From: an uncultured bacterium
GTDB taxonomy: Bacteria; Bacillota_I; Bacilli_A; RFN20; CAG-826
Length of the DNA stretch: 64,000 nt
Direction of reading: 5' to 3'
Assembly: GCA_949299195.1 (NCBI GenBank)
Contig: CASFZN010000020.1
Coordinates: 48,903-112,902 of the forward strand
Shown here: piece by piece, positions 1,699 through 58,178 of the stretch
Numbering within the stretch: position 1 is the first letter of the stretch
Layout of the letters: each line of letters opens with the position of its first letter
Notes under the pieces: generated by a model
The model's input: the letters and a program-made list of their open reading frames with translations, nothing else
The model's database searches: none
What the model was told of the DNA's origin: nothing
Position numbers and translations under genes: made by a program

Positions 1699-3597
1699 AT
1701 GGCTTATGGATTACTTTATGACTTTCTAAGCGGTCAAACTATTGAAGCATATAAATATTTTGGTGCTCATTTCACCCAACGGGAAGTCGAAGAGGATATG
1801 GAAGTTCCTCTTAAAAAAGACCAAACAAGGTCAAAGACAATTAAACATAAAAAGTTAGTTGATGGTGTAGTTTTTAGACTTTATGCACCAATGGCAAGCG
1901 ACGTAAGTGTAATAGGAGACTTTAATAACCGGGATCCTTTTGTTCATAAAATGAATAAGATTGATGATTCTGGTGTTTTTGAACTTTTTATTCCTAATTT
2001 ACACAATTATTCTTCTTATAAATTTCACTTTAAAAATGCACATGGAGAATATGTTGATAAAGCAGACCCATACGCATTTTTTAGTGAATATCGTCCAGGA
2101 ACATGTTCAAGATTATTTAATATTGAAGGATTTATTCGGCATGATCGTCCATATTTAAATACTAGAGACCGTAATTTTGACCGCCCAGTTTCAATTTATG
2201 AAATGCATTTAGGTTCTTGGAAAGGAAAGGTTGATGGAAGAAATCTTTCTTATGAAGAAATCGCAGATTATTTAATTCCTTATTTAAAGGATTTAGGTTT
2301 TACCCATATTGAAATCATGCCAATTGTTCAATATCCTTTTGATGGTTCATGGGGATATCAAGCAACAGGTTTCTTTAGTGTTGACTCTCGATATGGTAAT
2401 CCATTCCAACTTATGAGTTTTGTCGATAGAATGCATCAAGCTGGAATCGGAGTTATTTTAGATTTTGCTCCAGTTCATTTTGCAACTGATTCATGGGCAT
2501 TAACAATGTTTGATGGTACTCCGATGTATGAATATGGAGATTCTCATATGTATTCTCCTTGGGGTAGTAAACAATTTGACTTAGGAAAAGATCCAGTTAG
2601 AAGTTTCTTAATGTCAGCAATGAACTATTTCCTTGATTATTTCCATTTCGATGGCATTAGAGTTGATGCTGTTAGTAATATTGTTTATTGGGATGGCAAT
2701 AAGAATAATGGAGAAAATACCGGAGCTACCGAATTTATTAAAAGATTAAACGGTAAAATTCATATTGCTCATTGTAGCGTAATGATGATTGCTGAAGATT
2801 CTACCGATTTTACAATGGTTACTAAACCTACCGATTGGAATGGCTTAGGATTTGATTATAAATGGGATTTGGGATGGATGAATGACACCTTAAAATACTA
2901 TAAACTTGATCCTATTTATAAAAAATATGACCATAATAAGCTTACTTTCTCGATGGCATATTTCTATAGTGAAAATTTCATGCTTCCTTTATCTCATGAT
3001 GAAGTAGTCCATGGAAAAGGAACTATTTTAAATAAGATGTATGGAGATTATGATACTAAATTCGCATTAGTTAGAAATCTTTATACCTATCAATTTGGTC
3101 ATCCAGGTAAAAAGCTTAACTTTATGGGAAATGAACTTGCTTCTTGGGATGAATGGAATGAAAATAAATCACTTCCTTGGGATTTAAAACGTTTCCCTAA
3201 ACACGATAGTGTCTATAGACTTGTAAGAGATTTAAATCTTATCTATAGAAACGAAGAAGCAATGTATTTTGAAGAATATAATCCAGTTCATTTTAACTGG
3301 CTTATGGTTGATAATGCTAATGATAGCGTCTTTGCTTTTGAAAGAAGAGTTAAGGATTCTCATTTAGTATTTATCTATAATATGACTCCTAATTACTATG
3401 AATATTATGATATTGGTTTAACTAGAAGTGGAACTTATGAAGAAATATTTAATAGTGATAAGGATGTTTATGGCGGATCTAATGCATATAATGGACTTCC
3501 TTTAACAAGTAGTGAATGGGGACCTGAAAATAAACCTCATAAATTAACTGTTAAACTAGCTCCTTATGCAGCAATGATCTTTAAATTTAAAGAATAA
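1699..3597 (+). CDS. glgB: 1,4-alpha-glucan branching enzyme (GH13_9); contains 3 in-frame CGG codons
   Basis: IYEMHLGSW, SWGYQATGFF, DGIRVDAV (nucleophile), IAEDST (acid/base) and LSHDEVVHGK motifs. Confidence 0.97.
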   Translation: MAYGLLYDFLSGQTIEAYKYFGAHFTQREVEEDMEVPLKKDQTRSKTIKHKKLVDGVVFRLYAPMASDVSVIGDFNNRDPFVHKMNKIDDSGVFELFIPNLHNYSSYKFHFKNAHGEYVDKADPYAFFSEYRPGTCSRLFNIEGFIRHDRPYLNTRDRNFDRPVSIYEMHLGSWKGKVDGRNLSYEEIADYLIPYLKDLGFTHIEIMPIVQYPFDGSWGYQATGFFSVDSRYGNPFQLMSFVDRMHQAGIGVILDFAPVHFATDSWALTMFDGTPMYEYGDSHMYSPWGSKQFDLGKDPVRSFLMSAMNYFLDYFHFDGIRVDAVSNIVYWDGNKNNGENTGATEFIKRLNGKIHIAHCSVMMIAEDSTDFTMVTKPTDWNGLGFDYKWDLGWMNDTLKYYKLDPIYKKYDHNKLTFSMAYFYSENFMLPLSHDEVVHGKGTILNKMYGDYDTKFALVRNLYTYQFGHPGKKLNFMGNELASWDEWNENKSLPWDLKRFPKHDSVYRLVRDLNLIYRNEEAMYFEEYNPVHFNWLMVDNANDSVFAFERRVKDSHLVFIYNMTPNYYEYYDIGLTRSGTYEEIFNSDKDVYGGSNAYNGLPLTSSEWGPENKPHKLTVKLAPYAAMIFKFKE

Positions 3598-10875: not shown

Positions 10876-10924
10876 ATAGAAATATCTAATAAATTACGAT
10901 ATTATATTAGTTGTTTAAAAATGG

Positions 10925-11135
10925 CGATGAAGAGAAGTAGTAATTAACTTTAATTCTTTTACCAGTGAAGAGTGATGGTGAGAAACTCAAAAAGAATGGT
11001 TAATGAATTCGTCTCAGAGCTTCTTTGATGAAGACGTGTACTTTTACGTAAATAAAGTAAATTAAGTAAGAATTAGGATGGTACCGTGTAGAAGATAATT
11101 TCTTTGCACTCCTATACACTAATTCTTTTTTTATT
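10925..11135 (+). ncRNA. T-box riboswitch, Phe specifier (UUC)
   Basis: Stem I with AG bulge and GGTGAGAA apical loop; specifier TTC at 11008-11010; T-box AATTAGGATGGTACCGTG at 11071-11088; upstream of pheS. Confidence 0.85.
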
Positions 11136-11166
11136 TATTTAAACTATTTTTAAAGATAAAGGGGTA

Positions 11167-21876: not shown

Positions 21877-23400
21877 ATGAAAGAGAGTGGAATCTTATTA
21901 CATATCACCTCATTACCTAGTAAATATGGAATTGGAACACTTGGCAAAGAGTGTATAAAATTCATCGATTATATCGCTGAATGTGGTTTTTCTTATTGGG
22001 AAATATTACCGCTTGAAGATACTGGTTTTCCAAATTCTCCATTTTTAATTAAAAGTCCTTTTGGACATAATTCTTTATTAATTGATTTTGAAGAGTTAAT
22101 TGAAGAAGGATTACTTTCTAGTCGAGATTTAACTGGAATTGATTTTGGGTCTAATCCTCGTCAGGTAGATTTTTCAAAATTATTTAATACTAAAGAAGCA
22201 ATATTAAAAAAAGCCTATAAACGATTTGATAAAGAGAATATTGAATTTATTAATTTTAAACAAAACAATAAACATCTATATAATTATTGTTTATATAAAA
22301 CTATTAAAGATCATAACTATCATAAAGCGTGGTTTGATTTTGCTCTTGAAGATAGGTATTATTCTAGCGAAGTCAAAGAACACTATGAAAGACATTATAG
22401 TGATGAAATAGATTTCCATCAGTTTTTAGAATTTATCTTTAAAAAGCAGTGGGATAAGATACATAATTACGCTAAAAGTAAAAACATTGAAATAGTAGGA
22501 GATTTACCTCACTTTTTAGGATATGATAGCGATGCTGTTTATTTTGAACCAGAACTCTTTATGGTTGATAAAAGAAATTTAATTACTTTTGTTGCGGGTT
22601 TCCCACCAGATAACTTTAAACCTCAAGGTCAAAAATGGGGATATCCATTATATGATTGGGATTATATGAAACTTAATAACTATAAATGGTGGAAAGAAAG
22701 AATAGGAGCCTCTTTTCAATATTACGATAGATTAAAACTTAATCATTTCCGTGGTTTTTTAGAAGTTTATGCGATTCCTTTTAGATCTAAATCTGCTAAA
22801 AGAGGAAAATATATTCAAGGGCCAGGATTAGAATTTATTGAAGAAATTAAAACAACAAGTGAAAACTTAATCGCAAGTGATATTGGAACCAGTAGTGAAA
22901 AGGTAAATTCTTTTGTTAAAAAAACCAATCTTCCTTCAATGAAGATTTTAATTCCTACTTTATTTGATAATGAAAAGGTTAAATGTATTCCTAGCGAAAT
23001 CGAAACAAATTGTTACTATTATTTAGGAAATCATAATAATACTCCAATAAAAACTAAACTCGAAGGATTAAATGAAGAAGAGAAAGAGAAGTTATTAATC
23101 TTTATAAAGGAAGAATGTCTAAAGTTAAATGTTCCTTATTTTGAAGATGATGTAATAACTCTTTATGATGTTTCTAAAAAGATTACTGAATTAATGTTTG
23201 CTTCTAATGCGGAACATTTAACTCTAACATTAATTGATCTTTTATATAAAGGAGATGAAGCTAGAATGAATCATCCAGGTACTATTGAAGGTAACTGGGA
23301 AGCTAGGTTTTTAGGGTTTGAATTTAGCGATTCTCTTAAAAATAGACTCGTTGATTTAAATACTAAATATAATCGTTTTAATAAAAGAAACATTAAGTAG
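21877..23400 (+). CDS. 4-alpha-glucanotransferase (GH77) paralogue, predicted catalytically inactive
   Basis: Full-length MalQ fold (ESGILLHITSLP, AGFPPDNF..GQKWGYPLYDW), but the catalytic motifs read LNHFRG, IASDIG and GNHNN. Confidence 0.85.
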   Translation: MKESGILLHITSLPSKYGIGTLGKECIKFIDYIAECGFSYWEILPLEDTGFPNSPFLIKSPFGHNSLLIDFEELIEEGLLSSRDLTGIDFGSNPRQVDFSKLFNTKEAILKKAYKRFDKENIEFINFKQNNKHLYNYCLYKTIKDHNYHKAWFDFALEDRYYSSEVKEHYERHYSDEIDFHQFLEFIFKKQWDKIHNYAKSKNIEIVGDLPHFLGYDSDAVYFEPELFMVDKRNLITFVAGFPPDNFKPQGQKWGYPLYDWDYMKLNNYKWWKERIGASFQYYDRLKLNHFRGFLEVYAIPFRSKSAKRGKYIQGPGLEFIEEIKTTSENLIASDIGTSSEKVNSFVKKTNLPSMKILIPTLFDNEKVKCIPSEIETNCYYYLGNHNNTPIKTKLEGLNEEEKEKLLIFIKEECLKLNVPYFEDDVITLYDVSKKITELMFASNAEHLTLTLIDLLYKGDEARMNHPGTIEGNWEARFLGFEFSDSLKNRLVDLNTKYNRFNKRNIK

Positions 23401-23722: not shown

Positions 23723-25249
23723 ATGAAAATTAGAGAAAGTGGAATTTTATTACATATCTCATCATTACCAAGTAAATATGGTATTGGTACCTTAGGAAAA
23801 GAAGCTTATAAATTTGTTGATTTTTTAAGTCTTTGTAGATGTAGTGTATGGCAAATCTTACCTCTTAACGTAACAAGTTATGGAGATAGTCCATATCAAT
23901 CTCCATCTAATAATGGCTTAAACTATTACTTTATAGATTTAGAAACCTTAATTGAAAAGAAGTTACTTACTTTAGAAGAAGTAGAATCCATTAATTGGGG
24001 AGATGATGAAGGAAGAGTTGATTACTCCCTTATATATAAAAATAGATTAGGAATCTTAAAGAAAGCCTTTGAAAGATTCAATCGTAACGATGAATCTTTC
24101 AAAAAGTTTATTAAAGATTACCCAATCTATAAAGACTTCGCAGTATTTATGGTATTAAAAGAAATTAATAATTTAACTGCATGGTATACCTGGGAAGAAA
24201 AATACCGTAAATACTCTTTAGAGTTAGAAGAAAAAATTATTAAAGAACATAAAGACTTAGTCTTATTCTATATCTGGACTCAATATGAGTTTAGAAGTGA
24301 ATACGATAAACTTAAAAAGTATGCAAACGATAAAAACATTAAGATTATGGGAGATCTCCCAATCTATGTTGCATTTGATTCACTTGAAGTACGGAAATAT
24401 CCTTCACTTTTTGAACTCGATGAAGAACATTTCCCTAAAAGAGTAGCTGGCTGTCCTCCTGATTGTTTTTCAAAAGATGGTCAATTATGGGGTAATCCTT
24501 TATATAACTGGGCTTATCATAAAGCTACTAACTATAAATGGTGGAATGAAAGAATAAATTATGCCTTATCCTTATTTGATTATTTAAGAATTGATCACTT
24601 TAGAGGATTTAGTGGCTATTATGCAATTCCTTTTAAAGATAAAACTGCTAAAAACGGTACTTGGGTAAAGGGTCCTGGATTTGATTTATTTAAAGATAAG
24701 TTAGATTATCCAATCGTTGCTGAAGATTTAGGAATGATTGATGATGACTTTATTAAATTCTTTAACTCTTGTGGTTATCCAGGAATGAAGATTGTAACTC
24801 AAGCATTCGATGATCCTGATAAAGAAAATATCTGGAGACCATCAAATTATACTTATAATTTCTTCTCATATAGCGGAACTCATGACTCTCAAACTACAAA
24901 ACAATTTATTATAGAAGTATGGCAAGATCCTAAAAGAAAGAAATTATTCTTAACTATTTTAGAAGAAGAATGTAAACACTTTAGAATTCCATTTGTTAAA
25001 ACTTTAAGTGAAGATGATTTAACTTTAAAGATTTGTGAACTTAACTTTGCAAGTGGTTCTAAATGTGCAGTTGTTCCACTTCAAGATTTATTAAAGATTG
25101 GAGCAGAAGGAAGAATGAATTTCCCTTCAACATTATCAACATCTAACTGGTCATGGAGAGTTAAACCAAATTTAATTAAAAAAGAAAAAGAAACTCTTCA
25201 AGACTTACTTACTAGATGGAATGATAATTATGAAAGAGGAGATTATTAA
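23723..25249 (+). CDS. malQ: 4-alpha-glucanotransferase (amylomaltase, GH77); contains one in-frame CGG
   Basis: Intact catalytic triad LRIDHFRG, VAEDLG and GTHDS; GDSPYQSPS and GQLWGNPLY motifs. Confidence 0.95.
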   Translation: MKIRESGILLHISSLPSKYGIGTLGKEAYKFVDFLSLCRCSVWQILPLNVTSYGDSPYQSPSNNGLNYYFIDLETLIEKKLLTLEEVESINWGDDEGRVDYSLIYKNRLGILKKAFERFNRNDESFKKFIKDYPIYKDFAVFMVLKEINNLTAWYTWEEKYRKYSLELEEKIIKEHKDLVLFYIWTQYEFRSEYDKLKKYANDKNIKIMGDLPIYVAFDSLEVRKYPSLFELDEEHFPKRVAGCPPDCFSKDGQLWGNPLYNWAYHKATNYKWWNERINYALSLFDYLRIDHFRGFSGYYAIPFKDKTAKNGTWVKGPGFDLFKDKLDYPIVAEDLGMIDDDFIKFFNSCGYPGMKIVTQAFDDPDKENIWRPSNYTYNFFSYSGTHDSQTTKQFIIEVWQDPKRKKLFLTILEEECKHFRIPFVKTLSEDDLTLKICELNFASGSKCAVVPLQDLLKIGAEGRMNFPSTLSTSNWSWRVKPNLIKKEKETLQDLLTRWNDNYERGDY

Positions 25250-29330: not shown

Positions 29331-31862
29331 ATGGCAAATTTACACTTAAAAAACATATATAAAGTTTATCCAAATGGCGCTAAAGCTGTTTCAAACTTTA
29401 ATATGGAAATCAAAGATAAAGAATTTATTGTTTTTGTCGGTCCTTCTGGATGTGGCAAATCAACTACATTACGTATGATCGCTGGCCTTGAAGATATCAC
29501 TGCTGGTGAATTATATATTGGTGATGAACTTGTTAATGATGTCGAACCTAAGGATAGAGATATCGCAATGGTTTTCCAAAACTATGCACTTTATCCTCAT
29601 ATGACTGTTTATGATAATATGGCTTTCGGTCTTAAATTAAGACATGTTCCAAAAGAAGAAATTCATAAAAAAGTCTTATGGGCAGCCGACGTTTTAAAAC
29701 TTACCGAGTATTTAGATAGAAAACCTAGAGCTATGTCTGGTGGTCAAAGACAAAGAGTTGCTTTGGGTAGAGCTATTTTAAGAAGCCCAAAAGTCTTCTT
29801 GCTCGATGAACCTCTTTCCAACCTTGATGCTAAATTAAGAACTGAAATGAGAGCTGAAATTGCTAAGATTCATAACCAATTGCAAACAACTTTCATTTAT
29901 GTTACCCATGACCAAACGGAAGCTATGACTCTTGGAACAAGAGTTGTTGTTATGAAATTAGGTGAAGTACAACAAATTGATACACCTCAAAATCTTTATA
30001 ATTATCCATCAAATAAATTCGTTGCTGGATTTATTGGAACTCCACAAATGAATTTCTTTGAAGCAACATTAAAGAGAAATGGCGATACTGTCGAAATTAT
30101 TTTCGATTATTGTGATAATAAACTCTATGTTCCTTTCGAAGATTTATTAAAAGTCACCCCAGCTTATTTAAATGGTAAAGAACATGTTTGGGTTGGTTTA
30201 AGATGTGAAGATATTTCATTAGAACCTGAAGATATTGCTAAGAGCAAAAATATCATGAAGATAAAAGTTTCTCACTTCGAAGAACTCGGAAATGAAACTT
30301 TAATTTATGGTGATTTAAATATGGGTGGCGATGGTTTCGTTGAATCATCCACTAGAGTTATCGCTAAATCAAATCATGGTTATTTAAATTTAAAACCTGG
30401 AGACGTTGTTGAAGCTGCTTTCAATATGAAGAAAGCACATTTCTTCGATAAGAAGAGTGAAGACACAATCGTTCCACGTGTTCCAAAAGAAAATGTCTTC
30501 GATTGCAGCGTTAAAAACGGACATCTTACATTCTTAAATACAGAGATTACATTACCATCAGCTATTAAATGTAAAGATATCGAAGTCGGACGTTTTATTA
30601 TCCCAACCGATGCAATAAGTTTAACTGATGAAGGTGAATTAAGTGCTAAAGTAACTGGATTTGAAGTAGTTAACGATGTTAAACTTTGCTATTTAAATAT
30701 TAATGGAAGAACATTCTTTGCTATTACTGAAAAAGAATATGAAGTTGGCACAGTTGTAAAATTATCGATTGATTATAAGAAGATTTCTATCTTCGAAAAC
30801 GATAGTGATGAAGCAGCTGTTAAACCACTTTCTACACATGATACTTTCTTAGGTTTATTTACCAATTTAGAAAATAATACTAAAGCTATTAAATCTTTAA
30901 CTAAATTAATAGATGAAATTTCTGAAAATAAAGTTAAAGAAGTTGAAAGAGAAGAATCATTAAAACTTTCAGAATTAGGCTATAATAACTTCTTATATAA
31001 AGAATATAAAGAAGATTATAAAGATGCTCTTGATGCTAATAAAAATGAACTTACCTATAAATTATCAACATTAGATTTAGGTAAAGATGGTAAAAAGAAA
31101 GCAAGAGATGAATATAAAGCAGCTAATGAAAAAGCTAAGGCAGAATATTTAGAAAAAATTAAAGTCTTAGATGCTAAAAAATCTCAAGCTTCTGCTGATA
31201 GTGCTACAAAAGCTGATAGTATCAAAGAAACTTATTCAAAAGAAATCGCTAATTTAAAACAATATTATAAGAATATTGCTAAAGATATTAGTGATGGCGC
31301 AAGCGAACTTAAACCTCTATTTGAAGAAACTAAAGCTGAAAGTGAAGCTACATTAGCTAAAGATATGAGCGAACTTAAGGCTAAGAGAAAAGAAACTTTA
31401 GCTGCTTTACATAATGAACTTAGTAAAGCTAAGACAAGTGATGAAAAAGCTTCAATTAAAGATAAGATCGCTCGTAATAATGATCGTTTCGATAAAGAAG
31501 AAGAACTTGCTGGATTAAAAGCTAAGAGTTTCTATATCGGAATTAATGGTCACTACGTTAAATCTTCATTCGATATTACTAAACGTATTGTTCAAGCATT
31601 CGGTACTGCTTTATTTAGATCTAATTATCGCTATGAAATTTCTCATTACGATTATGTTCGCGTCAATGATGGCGGATTAATCGCTCATGTTGAAGAGATT
31701 TTAGATTATGGTAAAGAAAAATTTGCTAGATGCTTAGTAAATAAAAATGAAATTTATGTTTCTTGTAAAGACGATGTCAAAGTTGGAGATACTTTACATT
31801 TGACATTCAATTTGAATAACATTAGAGTATTCGAGAACAAATTTGATATCAGATTATTCTAA
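29331..31862 (+). CDS. Sugar ABC ATPase MsmX/MalK-like with a long C-terminal extension (extra TOBE-like segments and a coiled coil)
   Basis: GPSGCGKS, MSGGQRQRVALGR, LLDEPLSNLD and VTHDQ motifs; 843 aa versus roughly 370 aa for typical MalK. Confidence 0.92.
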   Translation: MANLHLKNIYKVYPNGAKAVSNFNMEIKDKEFIVFVGPSGCGKSTTLRMIAGLEDITAGELYIGDELVNDVEPKDRDIAMVFQNYALYPHMTVYDNMAFGLKLRHVPKEEIHKKVLWAADVLKLTEYLDRKPRAMSGGQRQRVALGRAILRSPKVFLLDEPLSNLDAKLRTEMRAEIAKIHNQLQTTFIYVTHDQTEAMTLGTRVVVMKLGEVQQIDTPQNLYNYPSNKFVAGFIGTPQMNFFEATLKRNGDTVEIIFDYCDNKLYVPFEDLLKVTPAYLNGKEHVWVGLRCEDISLEPEDIAKSKNIMKIKVSHFEELGNETLIYGDLNMGGDGFVESSTRVIAKSNHGYLNLKPGDVVEAAFNMKKAHFFDKKSEDTIVPRVPKENVFDCSVKNGHLTFLNTEITLPSAIKCKDIEVGRFIIPTDAISLTDEGELSAKVTGFEVVNDVKLCYLNINGRTFFAITEKEYEVGTVVKLSIDYKKISIFENDSDEAAVKPLSTHDTFLGLFTNLENNTKAIKSLTKLIDEISENKVKEVEREESLKLSELGYNNFLYKEYKEDYKDALDANKNELTYKLSTLDLGKDGKKKARDEYKAANEKAKAEYLEKIKVLDAKKSQASADSATKADSIKETYSKEIANLKQYYKNIAKDISDGASELKPLFEETKAESEATLAKDMSELKAKRKETLAALHNELSKAKTSDEKASIKDKIARNNDRFDKEEELAGLKAKSFYIGINGHYVKSSFDITKRIVQAFGTALFRSNYRYEISHYDYVRVNDGGLIAHVEEILDYGKEKFARCLVNKNEIYVSCKDDVKVGDTLHLTFNLNNIRVFENKFDIRLF

Positions 31863-34859: not shown

Positions 34860-34862
34860 AAA

Positions 34863-34954
34863 AGAAAGCACTTTCATAAATTTAAATAAAAAAAATTAAA
34901 AGAACGATATTTATCGTTCTTTTTTTAACGAAAAAATGAAAGAAAGCGTTTTCA
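34863..34954. promoter_or_regulatory. Two cre/LacI-like operator half-palindromes flanking the neopullulanase terminator
   Basis: AGAAAGCACTTTCA (34863-34876) and AGAAAGCGTTTTCA (34941-34954). Confidence 0.45.
34898..34926 (+). terminator. Terminator after the neopullulanase gene
   Basis: AAAAGAACGAT / ATCGTTCTTTT stem followed by a T run. Confidence 0.7.
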
Positions 34955-35057
34955 ATTTTTAGATTAATTTTGCTAGATTTTTTATTTTTCTTACTTTTCT
35001 TATATGATATAAGTACCTCAAAAGAGGTGAATTAATTAATATCAGGAGGCAAACTTT

Positions 35058-35204
35058 ATGATTAAAATTATGTTTAAAAAATTATTTATGAAAAAATATT
35101 TAAAAAAAGTTAATAGATCAATTGTTGGAGTTGAAAATTATAGTGTTCAATCAGGTAATTTTATTCCTCCAGTTGCATTTATTAATATTCAACAAGAATT
35201 CTAA
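35058..35204 (+). CDS. Unannotated 48-aa small protein with a cationic amphipathic N-terminus
   Basis: AGGAGG at 35044-35049, ATG 35058, TAA 35202-35204; MIKIMFKKLFMKKYLKKVNRSIVGVENYSVQSGNFIPPVAFINIQQEF; extended -10 TGATATAAG at 35005-35013. Confidence 0.6.
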   Translation: MIKIMFKKLFMKKYLKKVNRSIVGVENYSVQSGNFIPPVAFINIQQEF

Positions 35205-35254
35205 TCTTATTTATTATTTTATTTAATGAATAAATTATTAATTATCGATAATAT

Positions 35255-35283
35255 TTTACATATTATTTAAAATAAGGTATTAT
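35255..35283 (+). promoter_or_regulatory. Sigma-A promoter for the ileS leader
   Basis: TTTACA, 17 nt, TATTAT. Confidence 0.5.
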
Positions 35284-35289
35284 TTATTC

Positions 35290-35500
35290 GTTAAAAGACA
35301 CGTCTTTAAGATTAATTTTCTAACTAGAGAATGTAACATTTGGTGGAAGTTACAAGAAAATCCTTAAAGGTATCACTTTTATTATATTTTTAAAACCGTT
35401 ACTTGTTGAGGGTATATCTTTTAAGATATAAACTAAGGTGGTACCGCGGATAAGCTTAGCTATTCGTCCTTAGAAATTAAATTTCTATGGACTTTTTTAT
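35290..35500 (+). ncRNA. T-box riboswitch, Ile specifier (AUC)
   Basis: Stem I (CTTTAAG/CTTAAAG, ATTTTCT/AGAAAAT, TGTAAC/GTTACA; AGAGA bulge, GGTGGAA loop); ATC at 35372-35374; T-box AACTAAGGTGGTACCGCG from 35431. Confidence 0.9.
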
Positions 35501-35517
35501 TAGAAAGGAGAAATTTG

Positions 35518-45607: not shown

Positions 45608-46531
45608 ATGAAAGAATCATTAAATAAACTTTATAATAATGGAGAGTTTGAAAGAATTATTGAAGAATATAAAGATACTTCGATATATGAAGAAATGATT
45701 TATGTCATTTCTTCATATATCTCTATTGATAAAATAGGGGAAGCCTATAGTTACTATAAAGAAAGATGTGAATTTTTAGAAACTAATGATTTTATCTCTA
45801 GTGTCAATGTCTTATTTTTAATTTTAGCCTTACTTGATAAAGACTATTTAGTTGAAAAAGAATTTGAACGATTAAGAAATGAGCCATATCGAAACTATGG
45901 AGTTGAATTATATTTAAAAGATTTAGAAAAAAACTATCAAGCTGTTAAAGCTACCACCATGGATTCAAGTGAACAAACTATTAATTTTATGGATGAATTA
46001 AATAGTGGTAACTATGAAAGAATAATTAATGCAATTAACTATTTAAAAGAAAACTATTCTAAGAATTTTAATACTTTCGCGCCTCTATTTTATGAATGCT
46101 ATCAAAATAGAGAAGAATTCGATAGTATTAAGAATTTATTCTTAAAATTATTAATTGAAACTGGGTATGATGTTAATTTAACTTTTGTTAAAAACGGCAA
46201 GTTTTATATGGTCAATCCAAGTGAATTAAAAGAAGAATATGATTCCCTTTTATATCACTTACTTGATTTATTTAATATCGTAAGAAGAAACGAAAAACAC
46301 GTTGGTTTTATTAAATATATTGAAGGTTTTGTAATCGATTATATTAGTTATAATCTTCCTGATTTTCCTGAATATAGCGAAGTCAATACCATCGTATATA
46401 TGGTCATTTTAAATATTTATAAGATCCATGGAGTTAGTATTAACGAATGTAGTTATTTAAAAGAAATTGTTTTTGATGAAACTTTTATAAAAAATATTGA
46501 AATTACCCTTAATAAAATGATGGGTTTATGA
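45608..46531 (+). CDS. Hypothetical helical protein
   Basis: 307-codon ORF with genome-typical usage; no motif recognised; the only main gene here ending in TGA. Confidence 0.7.
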   Translation: MKESLNKLYNNGEFERIIEEYKDTSIYEEMIYVISSYISIDKIGEAYSYYKERCEFLETNDFISSVNVLFLILALLDKDYLVEKEFERLRNEPYRNYGVELYLKDLEKNYQAVKATTMDSSEQTINFMDELNSGNYERIINAINYLKENYSKNFNTFAPLFYECYQNREEFDSIKNLFLKLLIETGYDVNLTFVKNGKFYMVNPSELKEEYDSLLYHLLDLFNIVRRNEKHVGFIKYIEGFVIDYISYNLPDFPEYSEVNTIVYMVILNIYKIHGVSINECSYLKEIVFDETFIKNIEITLNKMMGL

Positions 46532-53751: not shown

Positions 53752-53778
53752 AAATTAATATTTTCTTAATAAATACTA

Positions 53779-53808
53779 AAAAACACGATATTAATCGTGT
53801 TTTTTCTT
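53779..53808 (+). terminator. Terminator after valS
   Basis: AAAAACACGAT / ATCGTGTTTTT stem followed by a T run. Confidence 0.7.
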
Positions 53809-53911
53809 TTTTTATTCATTAAATTTTATATATATTTATAAAAATTTTAAAAATAAGTGAATAATTTTTAAATTTTAAGCGTTCTTGTATATAAAGGAGG
53901 TAATAGTCAAA

Positions 53912-54094
53912 ATGAATAAAATTATGTTAACCGAAGAAGAATTAGTTGCGATTAAACCCGGAGATGCTATTACTTTAGGAGCTGTTTTAGCAATCATGGC
54001 AATAGCAATTTTAGCAATCGCAGTCTATAAACTCTTCACATCAAATGAAGCAATAATTAAATTACCTGGTGGCTATCAATTTTCATGGGGTTAA
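53912..54094 (+). CDS. 60-aa peptide resembling a double-glycine-leader (class II bacteriocin-like) precursor
   Basis: AAAGGAGG RBS; ATG 53912; leader MNKIMLTEEELVAIKPG followed by a hydrophobic helix and LPGGYQFSWG. Confidence 0.6.
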   Translation: MNKIMLTEEELVAIKPGDAITLGAVLAIMAIAILAIAVYKLFTSNEAIIKLPGGYQFSWG

Positions 54095-54221
54095 AAGCTT
54101 AATTTAATTTATTGCTTACTATTTAAATTCAAATATCGAAACTTTTTAAAATAATCGTAATTTTCCTTATTTATTTGTTATTTTTTAGTTGAAAATTATA
54201 ATCACATATGATATTTTAATT

Positions 54222-54335
54222 AGCGTTGTAACTCTTTTTAAATAGAATTACAACCGCATTAAAGAGGTTACTTAATTTAATAAACGATATTATAAAAGAT
54301 ATCTACCTCCAAAGCGAGTACTTGATTTTAAAAAA
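54222..54335 (+). ncRNA. Probable ribosomal protein L21 leader
   Basis: Long 5' leader of rplU with a GTAACTCTTT / AAAGAGGTTAC stem and AACCGCA...ACCTCC..GCGAGT elements, as I recall them from Firmicute L21 leaders. Confidence 0.55.
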
Positions 54336-54347
54336 GGAGGAAGCATA

Positions 54348-56680: not shown

Positions 56681-57229
56681 ATGTATTCTTATTTAATTGG
56701 AAAAGTTTCTTCTATTAGAGAAGGAAGTATTGATTTTGAAGTTAATAACATTGGATATTTTTTATTTGTCTCAACTAGAGATAAATATGTTTTAAACGAA
56801 GAATATCGTGTTTATATATATGATGTAATCAAAGATGATCTTTTTAAGATGTATGGATTTTTATCCCTTGAAGATCGAATTATTTTTGAAAAATTATTAG
56901 AAGTTAGTGGAATCGGCCCTAAAAGAGCATTAACTATTATTTCTCAAGCAACTATAAATGAATTGGTTAGTTTAATAAAACTTAAAAACGTTAAATTATT
57001 ATCTAAAATAAATGGCGTTGGTCGCTATGCCGAAACTATTATTTACCATTTATCTAATAAATTAGATTTTTTAGAACCAAGTCTATTTAAATATCAAAAC
57101 GTCTTTTTAGCACTTAAGGATTTAGGATATGAAGTTAATAAGATTAATGAAGCTTTATTATCGCTTCCTAGTGGCTTAAGCGATGATATTGCCTTAAAAG
57201 AAGCACTTCGAGGTATCAATAATGTATAG
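56681..57229 (+). CDS. ruvA: Holliday junction helicase subunit RuvA
   Basis: MYGF...FEKLLEVSGIGPK HhH motif and ALKDLGY; precedes ruvB. Confidence 0.9.
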   Translation: MYSYLIGKVSSIREGSIDFEVNNIGYFLFVSTRDKYVLNEEYRVYIYDVIKDDLFKMYGFLSLEDRIIFEKLLEVSGIGPKRALTIISQATINELVSLIKLKNVKLLSKINGVGRYAETIIYHLSNKLDFLEPSLFKYQNVFLALKDLGYEVNKINEALLSLPSGLSDDIALKEALRGINNV

Positions 57230-58178
57230 AAGTGAAAATATTTTAAGGCCAACTAAACTTGATTCTTTCTTTGGTCAAGATGAAATTGTTAAAAGATTAA
57301 AAGTTTATATTTATAGCGCAAGAGTTAGAGATTCAATTTTAGATCATATTCTTTTTTATGGTCCTCCTGGCTTAGGAAAAACCACTTTAGCTCAAATTAT
57401 TGCTAATGAAATGGAAACTAATCTTATTTCTATTAGTGCTCCAAGTTTAAATAAACCACTTGAACTAATCTCTATTTTAAGTCAATTAAATGATGGAGAT
57501 ATCTTATTTATTGACGAGATTCATCGTCTTAAAAAAGAGATTGGTGAAATCTTATATAGTGCCATGGAAGATTTTGTCGTTTATGTTCCTTATAAAAGTG
57601 AAGAAAACACTAAGGCAATAACTTTAAATGTATCGCCATTTACTCTTATAGGAGCAACCACTAATGGAGGCAATTTGTCTAACGCTTTAAGAGACCGTTT
57701 CCCAGTAATTTTTAAGTTTAATTATTATTCATTAAACGATTTAGTTTTAATTATTAAAGAATGTAGTAAAATCTTAGATTTAAATTTCGAAGAAAAGTGC
57801 TTTTATGAAATTGCTAAAAGAAGTAGGTTAACCCCTAGAGTTTCAAATAATTTAATAAAAAGAATTTATGATTATATGATTTATAAGGGTTTAAAAGATA
57901 TAAAATATCAAGATTTAATCGAATGTTTTAACTTTTTAAAAATAAACGAATTCGGACTTAATGAAGATGATATTTCTATCATTAAACTCATGTATGAAAA
58001 ATTTTTAAATGTAAGCGTATCTTTAGAACGGATTGCATCTTATTTAAATGAAGACGTTAATAACATTAAAAATATTAATGAACCATTTTTAGTAAATAGT
58101 GGAATTATCGAAAGAACCAAAAGAGGAAGAATTTTAACCAAAAAAGGAATTGAAATTTATAAAAAGATAAAGAAATAA
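57222..58178 (+). CDS. ruvB: Holliday junction helicase subunit RuvB; one in-frame CGG at 58029
   Basis: LRP, GPPGLGKTT, IDEIHR, GATT, LRDRF and ERTKRGR motifs. Confidence 0.95.
   Translation: MYRSENILRPTKLDSFFGQDEIVKRLKVYIYSARVRDSILDHILFYGPPGLGKTTLAQIIANEMETNLISISAPSLNKPLELISILSQLNDGDILFIDEIHRLKKEIGEILYSAMEDFVVYVPYKSEENTKAITLNVSPFTLIGATTNGGNLSNALRDRFPVIFKFNYYSLNDLVLIIKECSKILDLNFEEKCFYEIAKRSRLTPRVSNNLIKRIYDYMIYKGLKDIKYQDLIECFNFLKINEFGLNEDDISIIKLMYEKFLNVSVSLERIASYLNEDVNNIKNINEPFLVNSGIIERTKRGRILTKKGIEIYKKIKK

What the first reader, a model, noticed from the sequence alone, without database searches (positions are those of the whole stretch)
24392..24394. Independent CGG-at-conserved-Trp site in amylomaltase MalQ
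Codon 224 of the active malQ is CGG in GDLPIYVAFDSLEV[CGG]KYPSLF. GH77 amylomaltases have a Trp here (for example Thermus IFVAEDSAEVWAHPEWF), and the neighbouring paralogue has an aromatic Tyr (DSDAVYFEP). This is a third conserved-Trp hit, in a second gene 22 kb away, which makes three chance T>C errors or Arg missense changes unlikely given how rare CGG otherwise is.
Basis: partly seen in the sequence, partly recalled or inferred. Interest (0 to 1): 0.7.

Follow-up and report, generated by a model that had tools for sequence, protein, structure and literature searches.

The report
CGG codon read as tryptophan
The CGG in malQ is real and sits where the enzyme needs an aromatic tryptophan, because this chicken-gut bacterium belongs to, or sits next to, a group (Candidatus Onthovivens) reported in 2021 to read CGG as tryptophan instead of arginine; it is a correct sighting of an already known variant genetic code.

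Summary
Observation confirmed. 24392-24394 is CGG, codon 224 of an intact GH77 4-alpha-glucanotransferase (malQ, 23723..25249). The aligned column is W or Y in 113 of the 120 closest homologues and W in all five solved structures shown.

CGG is in frame only 5 times in 18,894 codons: glgB codons 28, 78 and 147, malQ 224 and ruvB 270. All five are Trp in the 98-99% identical database homologues. Across related loci, 12 of 16 alignable CGG codons lie on Trp-majority columns and none on Arg-majority columns. CGA, CGC, CGT, AGG and AGA all behave as Arg.

The C at 24392 is reproduced in the contigs of one public run. Eight other runs carry TGG there, so it is a strain-level TGG/CGG polymorphism.

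Interpretation supported, but not new. The nearest named relatives are Candidatus Onthovivens (Bacilli, order RFN20). That is the clade where Shulgina and Eddy (eLife 2021) predicted CGG to Trp. GC content (27.5%) and arginine codon usage match their table for it.

The decoding tRNA(CCG) is not in the window and I could not recover it. The mechanism therefore rests on the literature. No experiment has yet confirmed this reading in this clade.

The parts
24392..24394 (+). CGG, codon 224 of malQ, read as Trp
   Evidence: Searches give the sequence and frame. The position is W in the 99% identical P0001. The column is W 56, Y 57, R 4. L001 also has CGG at this column, and other relatives have TGG or TAT. 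The C is reproduced in an X33 contig.
23723..25249 (+). malQ, GH77 4-alpha-glucanotransferase, catalytically intact
   Evidence: Pfam PF02446, E 1.2e-145. PDB homologues 6m6t and 1tz7 match at E about 1e-108. The catalytic Asp, Glu and Asp are present.
1699..3597 (+). glgB, 1,4-alpha-glucan branching enzyme, carrying three in-frame CGG codons
   Evidence: Pfam CBM_48, Alpha-amylase and Alpha-amylase_C. The three CGG codons are listed.
1780..1782 (+). CGG, glgB codon 28, on a variable column
   Evidence: W in P0121 (99% identical) and P0124 (88%). More distant relatives have K or R. The C is present in contigs of runs X1, X3, X25, X2 and X33, and T in X8, X34 and X35.
1930..1932 (+). CGG, glgB codon 78, in the GDFNN[W]D motif of CBM48
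   Evidence: The column is W 116, R 5. The R in P0189 and P0218 is also encoded by CGG. Cyanobacterial GlgB structures have W.
2137..2139 (+). CGG, glgB codon 147, on an invariant Trp column
   Evidence: The column is W 120, R 1, the R being the query. The C is reproduced in an X33 contig.
58029..58031 (+). CGG, ruvB codon 270, on a column that is T, S or A in other taxa
   Evidence: W in the 98% identical P0241. C in runs X33, X2 and X25, T in X35.
57222..58178 (+). ruvB, host gene of the fifth CGG
   Evidence: Pfam RuvB_N, AAA_lid_4 and RuvB_C.

Best explanation
The organism uses a variant genetic code in which CGG specifies tryptophan instead of arginine. All other arginine codons, UGG (Trp) and UGA (stop) keep their standard meaning. 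Codon 224 of malQ therefore encodes the aromatic residue the enzyme has at that position, and the C/T difference from sister strains is a synonymous polymorphism.

Shown here:
- CGG is very rare.
- CGG sits on Trp positions.
- CGG interchanges with TGG between strains and between species.
- The other Arg codons behave as Arg.

Inferred from the literature on this clade (PMC8629427): strong AT pressure drove CGG to near-extinction. tRNA-Arg(UCG) was lost, so CGA, CGU and CGC are read by tRNA-Arg(ICG) alone. CGG was left to a dedicated tRNA(CCG) that carries Trp identity (G73, no A20) and is charged by TrpRS. CGG codons then reappear by T-to-C changes in UGG codons.
For: 1. All five in-frame CGG codons in the window are W in the 98-99% identical homologues P0001, P0121 and P0241. 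They are TGG in the conspecific loci L166 and L167.

2. Comparison across the window and 14 related loci. Of 16 CGG codons with at least 3 aligned homologues, 12 lie on columns that are at least 60% W (8 distinct columns) and 1 on a Y/W/F column. None lies on an R-majority column. None of the 1,499 CGA, CGC, CGT, AGG and AGA codons scored fell on a W-majority column, and R was the commonest majority residue for each. P(at least 8 of 11 distinct columns) is about 7e-14.

3. In 121 GlgB sequences of the clade translated with the standard code, R replaces W in 10 of 12 conserved-W columns (4.4% of cells). The rate is 0-0.4% for every other residue except K, which is 2.5%. Within one 90%-identity MalQ cluster, 5 of 15 W columns are mixed W/R.

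4. The same malQ column is CGG in L001 and TGG in L002-L005, L007, L009, L010, L067 and L074.

5. The bases are real. The C at 24392, 2137, 1780 and 58029 appears in contigs of run X33. The C at 1780 and at 58029 appears in further runs as well.

6. Genome properties match the published clade. GC is 0.275. Per 10,000 codons: AGA 245, AGG 12.7, CGT 39.7, CGC 10.6, CGA 13.8, CGG 2.6. The published ranges are GC 0.27-0.30 and CGG 0.86-2.5, with AGG, CGC and CGA also close to the table's ranges, in the Bacilli CGG-to-Trp sheet of PMC8629427.

7. The nearest named relatives are Candidatus Onthovivens sp., with shared gene order around glgB. UBA4855 of the 2021 paper is now called Onthovivens (RFN20, CAG-826), and later papers list it as a CGG-to-Trp lineage.
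Against: No tRNA gene lies in the 64 kb window or in 25 kb of conspecific flanks. My pattern scans did not recover this clade's tRNA(CCG). The decoding step is therefore not shown for this genome.

No protein-level evidence exists. Shulgina and Eddy themselves state that only experiment can establish the in vivo reading.

Two of the five CGG codons (glgB 28, ruvB 270) lie on columns that are not Trp in other taxa. They support Trp only through the nearest strains.

Support for the C at 24392 is a single low-depth contig (2.8x) from a run that may be the window's own source sample. Eight other runs have T.

Genus-level placement is approximate. Identity to the related loci over shared genes is 55-63%.
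Confidence: 0.9

Rival explanations
1. Base-call or consensus error: the true codon is TGG, and the C at 24392 (and at the other sites) is an assembly artefact.
For: Eight public runs with closely related strains all have T at 24392. The 99% identical database protein has W. The only run reproducing the C has word depth 2.8 and may be the sample the window was assembled from.
Against: An assembler-independent contig of X33 is identical to the window over 24250-24464. The same run reproduces the C at 1780, 2137 and 58029. The C at 1780 is also in X1, X3, X25 and X2 at 5.7-43x, and the C at 58029 is also in X2 and X25. Independent assemblies of other species show the same CGG-for-Trp pattern (L001, L002, L004, L081-L083). 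Random T-to-C errors would not land only on first positions of Trp codons.
Confidence: 0.03
2. Standard code: the codons really encode arginine, so this strain carries Trp-to-Arg missense changes in GlgB, MalQ and RuvB, possibly as decaying genes.
For: CGG is Arg in the standard code, and one T-to-C step turns TGG into CGG. R is also seen at the malQ column in P0004, P0030 and P0085.
Against: Every rare CGG would have to be a W-to-R replacement, and none an ordinary Arg. No CGG lies on an Arg-majority column, against 696 such cases for the other five Arg codons. Two of the sites are invariant or near-invariant Trp (116-120 of 121) in enzymes that are otherwise intact, with full-length ORFs and catalytic residues present. 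R-for-W is the most frequent 'substitution' in the clade's GlgB alignment, which makes sense only if it is silent. Where DNA was available, these R are CGG and never AGA or AGG.
Confidence: 0.02
3. Incomplete reassignment: CGG is ambiguous (a Trp/Arg mixture), is read inefficiently by near-cognate tRNAs, or is unassigned in this strain. It would be tolerated only because it is so rare.
For: The reassigned codon has not rebounded in frequency (2.6 per 10,000). One species of the published clade has no detectable tRNA(CCG) and a '?' inference. One Onthovivens tRNA(CCG) has an unusual 4-bp anticodon stem, which the authors predict could cause misreading of CGA. The conspecific loci L166 and L167 have no in-frame CGG at all.
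Against: CGG sits at invariant Trp positions of core carbohydrate enzymes and persists in several samples. That is hard to reconcile with frequent Arg insertion or stalling. Three CGG codons lie in one gene, glgB. Published tRNA identity elements for the clade are consistent with Trp.
Confidence: 0.05
4. C-to-U editing of the mRNA restores UGG at these sites while the code stays standard.
For: It would also give Trp at CGG positions. No direct evidence was found here.
Against: To my knowledge no site-specific C-to-U mRNA editing system is known in bacteria. The five sites share no sequence context beyond CGG. It does not explain the published Trp-type tRNA(CCG) or the loss of tRNA(UCG) in the clade.
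Confidence: 0.005

Closest known systems
CGG (Arg) to Trp reassignment in uncultivated Bacilli of GTDB order RFN20, genus UBA4855, now Candidatus Onthovivens (Shulgina and Eddy 2021, PMC8629427; listed again in PMC13092985 and bioRxiv 10.64898/2026.05.03.722492)
   Same: Only CGG is affected. GC is 0.26-0.30 there and 0.275 here. CGG is used about 1-2.5 times per 10,000 codons there and 2.6 here. AGA is the dominant Arg codon. UGG is still the main Trp codon and UGA is still stop. The nearest named relatives of the window are Onthovivens, and the habitat is an animal gut.
   Different: Nothing in kind. The window's species is 55-63% identical in shared proteins to the related loci I could fetch, so it may be a species or sister genus not in the 2021 set. 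The tRNA(CCG) could not be examined here. The strain-level TGG/CGG polymorphism seen here is not something I found reported.
CGG to Trp in Anaerococcus (same paper)
   Same: Same codon and same new amino acid. Also a low-GC Firmicute without tRNA(UCG).
   Different: An unrelated lineage (Clostridia-type cocci) with GC 0.33-0.36 and even rarer CGG. The authors found no supporting conserved-column examples there, whereas this window has several.
CGA and CGG to Trp in Absconditabacteria (SR1), together with UGA to Gly (same paper)
   Same: CGG is read as Trp through a Trp-like tRNA(CCG). I recovered such tRNAs (A1:U72, G73, U20) next to tRNA-Trp(CCA) on metagenome contigs where TGA is a sense codon.
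   Different: In the window CGA behaves as Arg and TGA is not a sense codon (0 in frame). It is therefore not that code or that phylum.
CGG to Gln in Peptacetobacter and CGG to Ala in RGIG3102 (PMC8629427; bioRxiv 10.64898/2026.04.02.715157)
   Same: The same rare codon is freed by low GC and by loss of tRNA(UCG).
   Different: The new meaning there is Gln or Ala. Here the aligned columns are Trp or aromatic.
UGA to Trp in Mycoplasmatales and Entomoplasmatales (translation table 4)
   Same: AT-rich Bacilli relatives gain a second Trp codon one mutation away from UGG, read by a tRNA whose anticodon is one mutation away from that of tRNA-Trp(CCA).
   Different: That is a stop-to-sense change. 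This is a sense-to-sense change, and TGA never occurs in frame here.

Membership tests
RFN20 / Candidatus Onthovivens CGG-to-Trp genetic code | CGG codons align to Trp-conserved columns and not to Arg columns | tested here: met
   12 of 16 CGG codons lie on W-majority columns and 0 on R-majority columns. All 5 window CGG codons are W in the nearest homologues.
RFN20 / Candidatus Onthovivens CGG-to-Trp genetic code | Only CGG is reassigned. CGA, CGU, CGC, AGA and AGG stay Arg | tested here: met
   The most frequent majority residue is R for each: CGA 40/68, CGC 19/40, CGT 104/216, AGG 24/55, AGA 509/1120. None is W-majority.
RFN20 / Candidatus Onthovivens CGG-to-Trp genetic code | Very low GC and CGG usage below about 6 per 10,000 codons, with AGA dominant | tested here: met
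   GC 0.275. CGG 2.6 and AGA 245 per 10,000.
RFN20 / Candidatus Onthovivens CGG-to-Trp genetic code | UGG is still the main Trp codon and UGA is not a sense codon | tested here: met
   141 TGG against 5 CGG, and 0 in-frame TGA. Stop codons are TAA 36, TAG 9, TGA 1.
RFN20 / Candidatus Onthovivens CGG-to-Trp genetic code | A tRNA(CCG) with Trp identity (G73, no A20) | not testable with these tools
   There is no tRNA in the window or in the conspecific flanks. The metagenome and viral pattern scans returned only other lineages. The feature is reported for the clade in PMC8629427.
RFN20 / Candidatus Onthovivens CGG-to-Trp genetic code | Absence of tRNA-Arg(UCG), with CGA read by tRNA(ICG) | not testable with these tools
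   This needs the whole genome. Only 64 kb plus about 11 kb of flanks were available.
RFN20 / Candidatus Onthovivens CGG-to-Trp genetic code | Phylogenetic placement in Bacilli, RFN20, CAG-826, Onthovivens | tested here: inconclusive
   The best named hits are Candidatus Onthovivens sp.: GlgB 79-84%, MalQ 63%, RuvB 57%. Gene order around glgB matches GCA_034087725.1. Overall identity to the related loci is only 55-63%, and no marker-gene tree was built.
Absconditabacteria code (CGA and CGG to Trp, UGA to Gly) | CGA also reads as Trp, and UGA is a sense codon | tested here: not met
   CGA aligns to R. ORFs are intact with TGA as stop and there is no in-frame TGA.
GH77 amylomaltase (MalQ) | Full-length GH77 domain with the catalytic Asp nucleophile, Glu acid/base and second Asp | tested here: met
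   PF02446, E 1.2e-145 over residues 10-482. RIDH, AEDLG and THD motifs are present.

The most novel reading that the evidence does not exclude
The window may come from a lineage outside the species set in which CGG-to-Trp was described, caught while CGG is being re-populated. Strains 98% identical differ by TGG/CGG at 4 of about 38 Trp codons. All four CGG states are in this strain, and the sister strains have none. That would give a population-level view of codon capture in progress. It could also hide residual ambiguity in how CGG is read.
Probability: 0.15. Interest if true: 0.45.

Novelty: already known. Interest (0 to 1): 0.3.

Why it matters
Sense-codon reassignments in free-living bacteria are very rare, and all those described so far were found by computation. 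This window is a clean, independent re-detection of one of them from 64 kb of raw sequence.

The practical consequence is annotation. Pipelines that use translation table 11 write Arg where these bacteria make Trp. In the public GlgB sequences of this clade, 4.4% of the residues at conserved Trp positions are recorded as R. These positions include carbohydrate-binding and active-site-region residues, so the error feeds into alignments, structure predictions and function calls.

The strain-level TGG/CGG polymorphism gives concrete peptides and sites for the experimental confirmation the field still lacks for this clade.

Tried and rejected
1. Finding the decoding tRNA.
- ARAGORN found no tRNA in the window. 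It found none in 13 related loci apart from an unrelated cluster in L011, none of use in 60 further loci, and none in the conspecific flanks L166 and L167.
- I took an Onthovivens tRNA-Trp(CCA) sequence from the supplement of PMC13092985 and built a degenerate pattern for a CCG-anticodon derivative.
- Those contigs have open reading frames only if TGA is a sense codon. They are Absconditabacteria-type, not this clade.
- The same pattern in viral contigs hit one 60% GC phage tRNA array.
- The tRNA(CCG) sequences of Supplementary Table S3 of PMC13092985 are not held as text.

I therefore could not show that the R at the malQ column in P0004, P0030 and P0085 is CGG. The window's own MalQ and RecJ-like proteins are not on record.

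3. I first assumed the site was Thermus Trp258 of the catalytic cleft. The numbering in PMC8465469 (D213, W258 in GQRWGNP) and the PDB offset show that it is residue 226.

4. Cluster look-up for taxon names gave no names.

5. The cluster of out-of-frame CGG trinucleotides in the maltodextrin transporter genes (25.4-29.3 kb) made me suspect foreign DNA. GC is only 0.31-0.37 and GC3 0.19-0.25, so I dropped the idea.

6. I asked whether TGG/CGG differences between strains are more frequent than other silent changes. There are 4 among about 38 Trp codons, against roughly 5% silent divergence. That is not significantly higher, so it is consistent with neutrality.

7. Rfam at the gathering threshold found nothing in the window.

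Full report
WHAT IS THERE. Positions 24392-24394 are CGG. They form codon 224 of a 508-codon ORF, 23723..25249 on the + strand. The product is a full-length GH77 4-alpha-glucanotransferase: Pfam PF02446 at E 1.2e-145, and solved homologues 6m6t and 1tz7 at E about 1e-108. It retains the catalytic Asp, Glu and Asp.

The window has 27.5% GC and is ordinary chromosome. Its genes are trkHA, glgB, glgP, pheST, mraZ-rsmH, ftsAZ, a GH13 amylase, two GH77 genes, a maltodextrin ABC transporter, ileS, lspA, mutS2, uvrC, tig, lon, valS, rplU, obg, ruvAB and secDF. It holds no tRNA and no Rfam family at the gathering score.

HOW RARE IS CGG. In 46 genes and 18,894 codons there are five in-frame CGG. They are glgB codons 28, 78 and 147 (positions 1780, 1930, 2137), malQ codon 224 (24392) and ruvB codon 270 (58029). 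A sixth apparent case lies in an antisense ORF inside ftsZ, which I treat as spurious: it overlaps ftsZ and has no Pfam match. The rpmA gene and the partial relA gene have none in frame. On the sense strand of genes the trinucleotide CGG occurs 104 times in frame 2, 21 times in frame 1 and 5 times in frame 0. Per 10,000 codons the usage is AGA 245, AGG 12.7, CGT 39.7, CGC 10.6, CGA 13.8, CGG 2.6 and TGG 74.6.

WHAT THE COLUMNS SAY. Among the query and its 120 best MalQ homologues the column of codon 224 is Y 57, W 56, R 4, L 3 and F 1. The five solved GH77 structures whose alignments were printed, bacterial and plant, all have W. By offset the position is residue 226 of Thermus amylomaltase 1CWY. 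It is not Trp258 of the catalytic cleft, which lies further on in GQRWGNP.

The column of glgB codon 78 (GDFNN-W-D of CBM48) is W 116, R 5. The column of glgB codon 147 is W 120, R 1. Cyanobacterial GlgB structures have W at both. glgB codon 28 and ruvB codon 270 lie on variable columns, K/R and T/S/A respectively.

The decisive point is that in the 98-99% identical database proteins all five positions are W. The conspecific loci L166 and L167 (98% nucleotide identity) cover four of them, and there all four are TGG. The chance of five out of five is about 2e-11.

THE SAME PATTERN IN RELATIVES. At the MalQ column, locus L001 (74% protein identity) also has CGG. Nine other related loci have TGG and three have TAT. 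The R at GlgB column 78 in P0189 (Candidatus Onthovivens sp., GCA_034087725.1) and in P0218 is likewise CGG.

I compared all ORFs of the window and 14 related loci with each other and with the database hits. Of 16 CGG codons with at least three aligned homologues, 12 fall on columns that are at least 60% W (8 distinct columns) and one falls on a Y/W/F column. None falls on an R-majority column. The other five Arg codons fall on R-majority columns (696 cases) or on variable columns, and never on W columns.

In the 121-sequence GlgB alignment, R stands in for W in 10 of 12 conserved-W columns, which is 4.4% of cells. That is more often than R replaces K (2.5%), and the rate for every other residue is 0-0.4%. 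Within a single 90%-identity MalQ cluster, 5 of 15 W columns are mixed W/R. This is the signature of a silent TGG/CGG exchange that has been mistranslated with table 11.

ARE THE BASES REAL. Contigs of eight public chicken or bird gut runs carry T at 24392. Run X33 has a contig identical to the window over 24250-24464, including the C, at depth 2.8. The same run matches the window exactly at 1780 and 2137 and at 58029. The C at 1780 is also present in X1, X3, X25 and X2 at up to 43x, with T in X8, X34 and X35. The C at 58029 is also in X2 and X25, with T in X35. At 1930 the X33 contigs break, and I found no other support for the C there.

The CGG codons are therefore natural variants that segregate among strains. 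Against L166 and L167 there are 179 silent and 64 replacement differences, and the four W/R sites are counted among the 64 only because of the standard table. Four differences among about 38 Trp codons is in line with silent-site divergence.

WHAT IT IS. The nearest named relatives are Candidatus Onthovivens sp.: GlgB 79-84%, MalQ 63%, RuvB 57%. Gene order around glgB is shared with one of these genomes. The runs that hold the sequence are chicken, bird or faecal metagenomes.

Shulgina and Eddy (eLife 2021, PMC8629427) predicted with Codetta that a clade of uncultivated Bacilli of GTDB order RFN20, genus UBA4855, reads CGG as Trp. Their source table gives GC 0.27-0.30 and CGG 0.86-2.5 per 10,000 for the species inferred as Trp. 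It also records one tRNA(ACG), no tRNA(UCG), one tRNA(CCG) and one tRNA(CCA) in those species. The supplement of PMC13092985 shows that UBA4855 sp002451465 is now Onthovivens sp002451465 (Bacilli, RFN20, CAG-826). That paper and a 2026 preprint list Onthovivens among the CGG-to-Trp lineages. The window matches this description in every feature I could test.

HOW IT MOST LIKELY WORKS. Shown here: CGG is nearly extinct, it stands at Trp positions, and it interchanges with TGG. CGA and the other Arg codons remain Arg. TGA never occurs in frame and ends one gene.

Inferred from the cited work: AT pressure depleted CGG. tRNA-Arg(UCG) was lost, so CGU, CGC and CGA are read by tRNA-Arg(ICG). CGG is read by a dedicated tRNA(CCG) that lacks the Arg determinant A20 and has the Trp discriminator G73. 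Its anticodon is one mutation away from that of tRNA-Trp(CCA).

I could not examine that tRNA for this genome. As an illustration of the type, the Absconditabacteria-type contigs I recovered carry a tRNA(CCG) with A1:U72, G73 and U20 beside tRNA-Trp(CCA). That is another phylum and another code.

RIVALS. Assembly error is excluded for four of the five sites by independent contigs, and it would not explain the other species. True Arg substitutions are contradicted by the absence of any CGG at Arg columns and by intact enzymes with 'R' at invariant Trp positions. Ambiguous or inefficient decoding cannot be excluded without proteomics, and I give it about 5%. mRNA editing has no support.

VERDICT. 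The phenomenon is the published Onthovivens (RFN20) CGG-to-Trp code, so the novelty is low. Two things add modest value. One is the strain-level TGG/CGG polymorphism. The other is the demonstration that public protein sets of this clade carry systematic W-to-R mistranslations.

Noticed in passing
window 21877-23400 (+): The GH77 paralogue directly upstream of malQ lacks the catalytic machinery. In Thermus numbering, Asp293 is Asn, Glu340 is Ser, Arg291 is Lys and, in this genome, Asp395 is Asn. The Asn293 and Lys291 replacements, and the loss of the acid/base Glu340 (Ser, or Ala in L005), are conserved in the orthologues of six related loci at 52-63% identity. It looks like a maintained, non-catalytic GH77 protein rather than a decaying copy.
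   Followed up: partly
L131 964-1172; L140 4001-4306; L125 6964-7509; also L101, L112, L161: Metagenome contigs of 26-32% GC carry a tRNA(CCG) with Trp identity features (A1:U72, G73, U20) lying 60 nt to 4 kb from tRNA-Trp(CCA). Their ORFs are open only if TGA is a sense codon. These fit the Absconditabacteria-type CGG-to-Trp tRNA, not the window's clade.
   Followed up: partly
window 1780, 1930, 2137, 58029 compared with L166 and L167: All four TGG/CGG differences to the conspecific strains have CGG in the window and TGG in the other strain. L166 and L167 have no in-frame CGG in about 8,000 codons. The numbers are too small to be significant, but the asymmetry is worth checking genome-wide.
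   Followed up: partly
window 29331-31862 (+): The MalK-like ABC ATPase of the maltodextrin transporter is 843 aa long. Only the first 300 or so residues match ABC_tran and OB_MalK. The remaining 540 or so residues have no Pfam match.
   Followed up: no
window, stop codons of all 46 genes: Stop codon usage is TAA 36, TAG 9, TGA 1. The only TGA stop ends the unannotated 307-aa ORF 45608-46531.
   Followed up: no
window 10876-11166, 34860-35514, 53752-54347: There are long intergenic regions upstream of pheS, ileS and rplU, yet no Rfam family (T-box, ribosomal leader) reaches its gathering score anywhere in the 64 kb.
   Followed up: no
L081 9299-10390 codon 91; L081 11583-12533 codon 170: In the Candidatus Onthovivens contig GCA_034087725.1, further CGG codons sit in an M42 peptidase (…KPIGG[CGG]QS…) and in the nucleophile-elbow motif of an alpha/beta hydrolase (…FG[CGG]SMGG…). 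From memory, Trp is common at the latter position and Arg is not. I did not check this against alignments.
   Followed up: no
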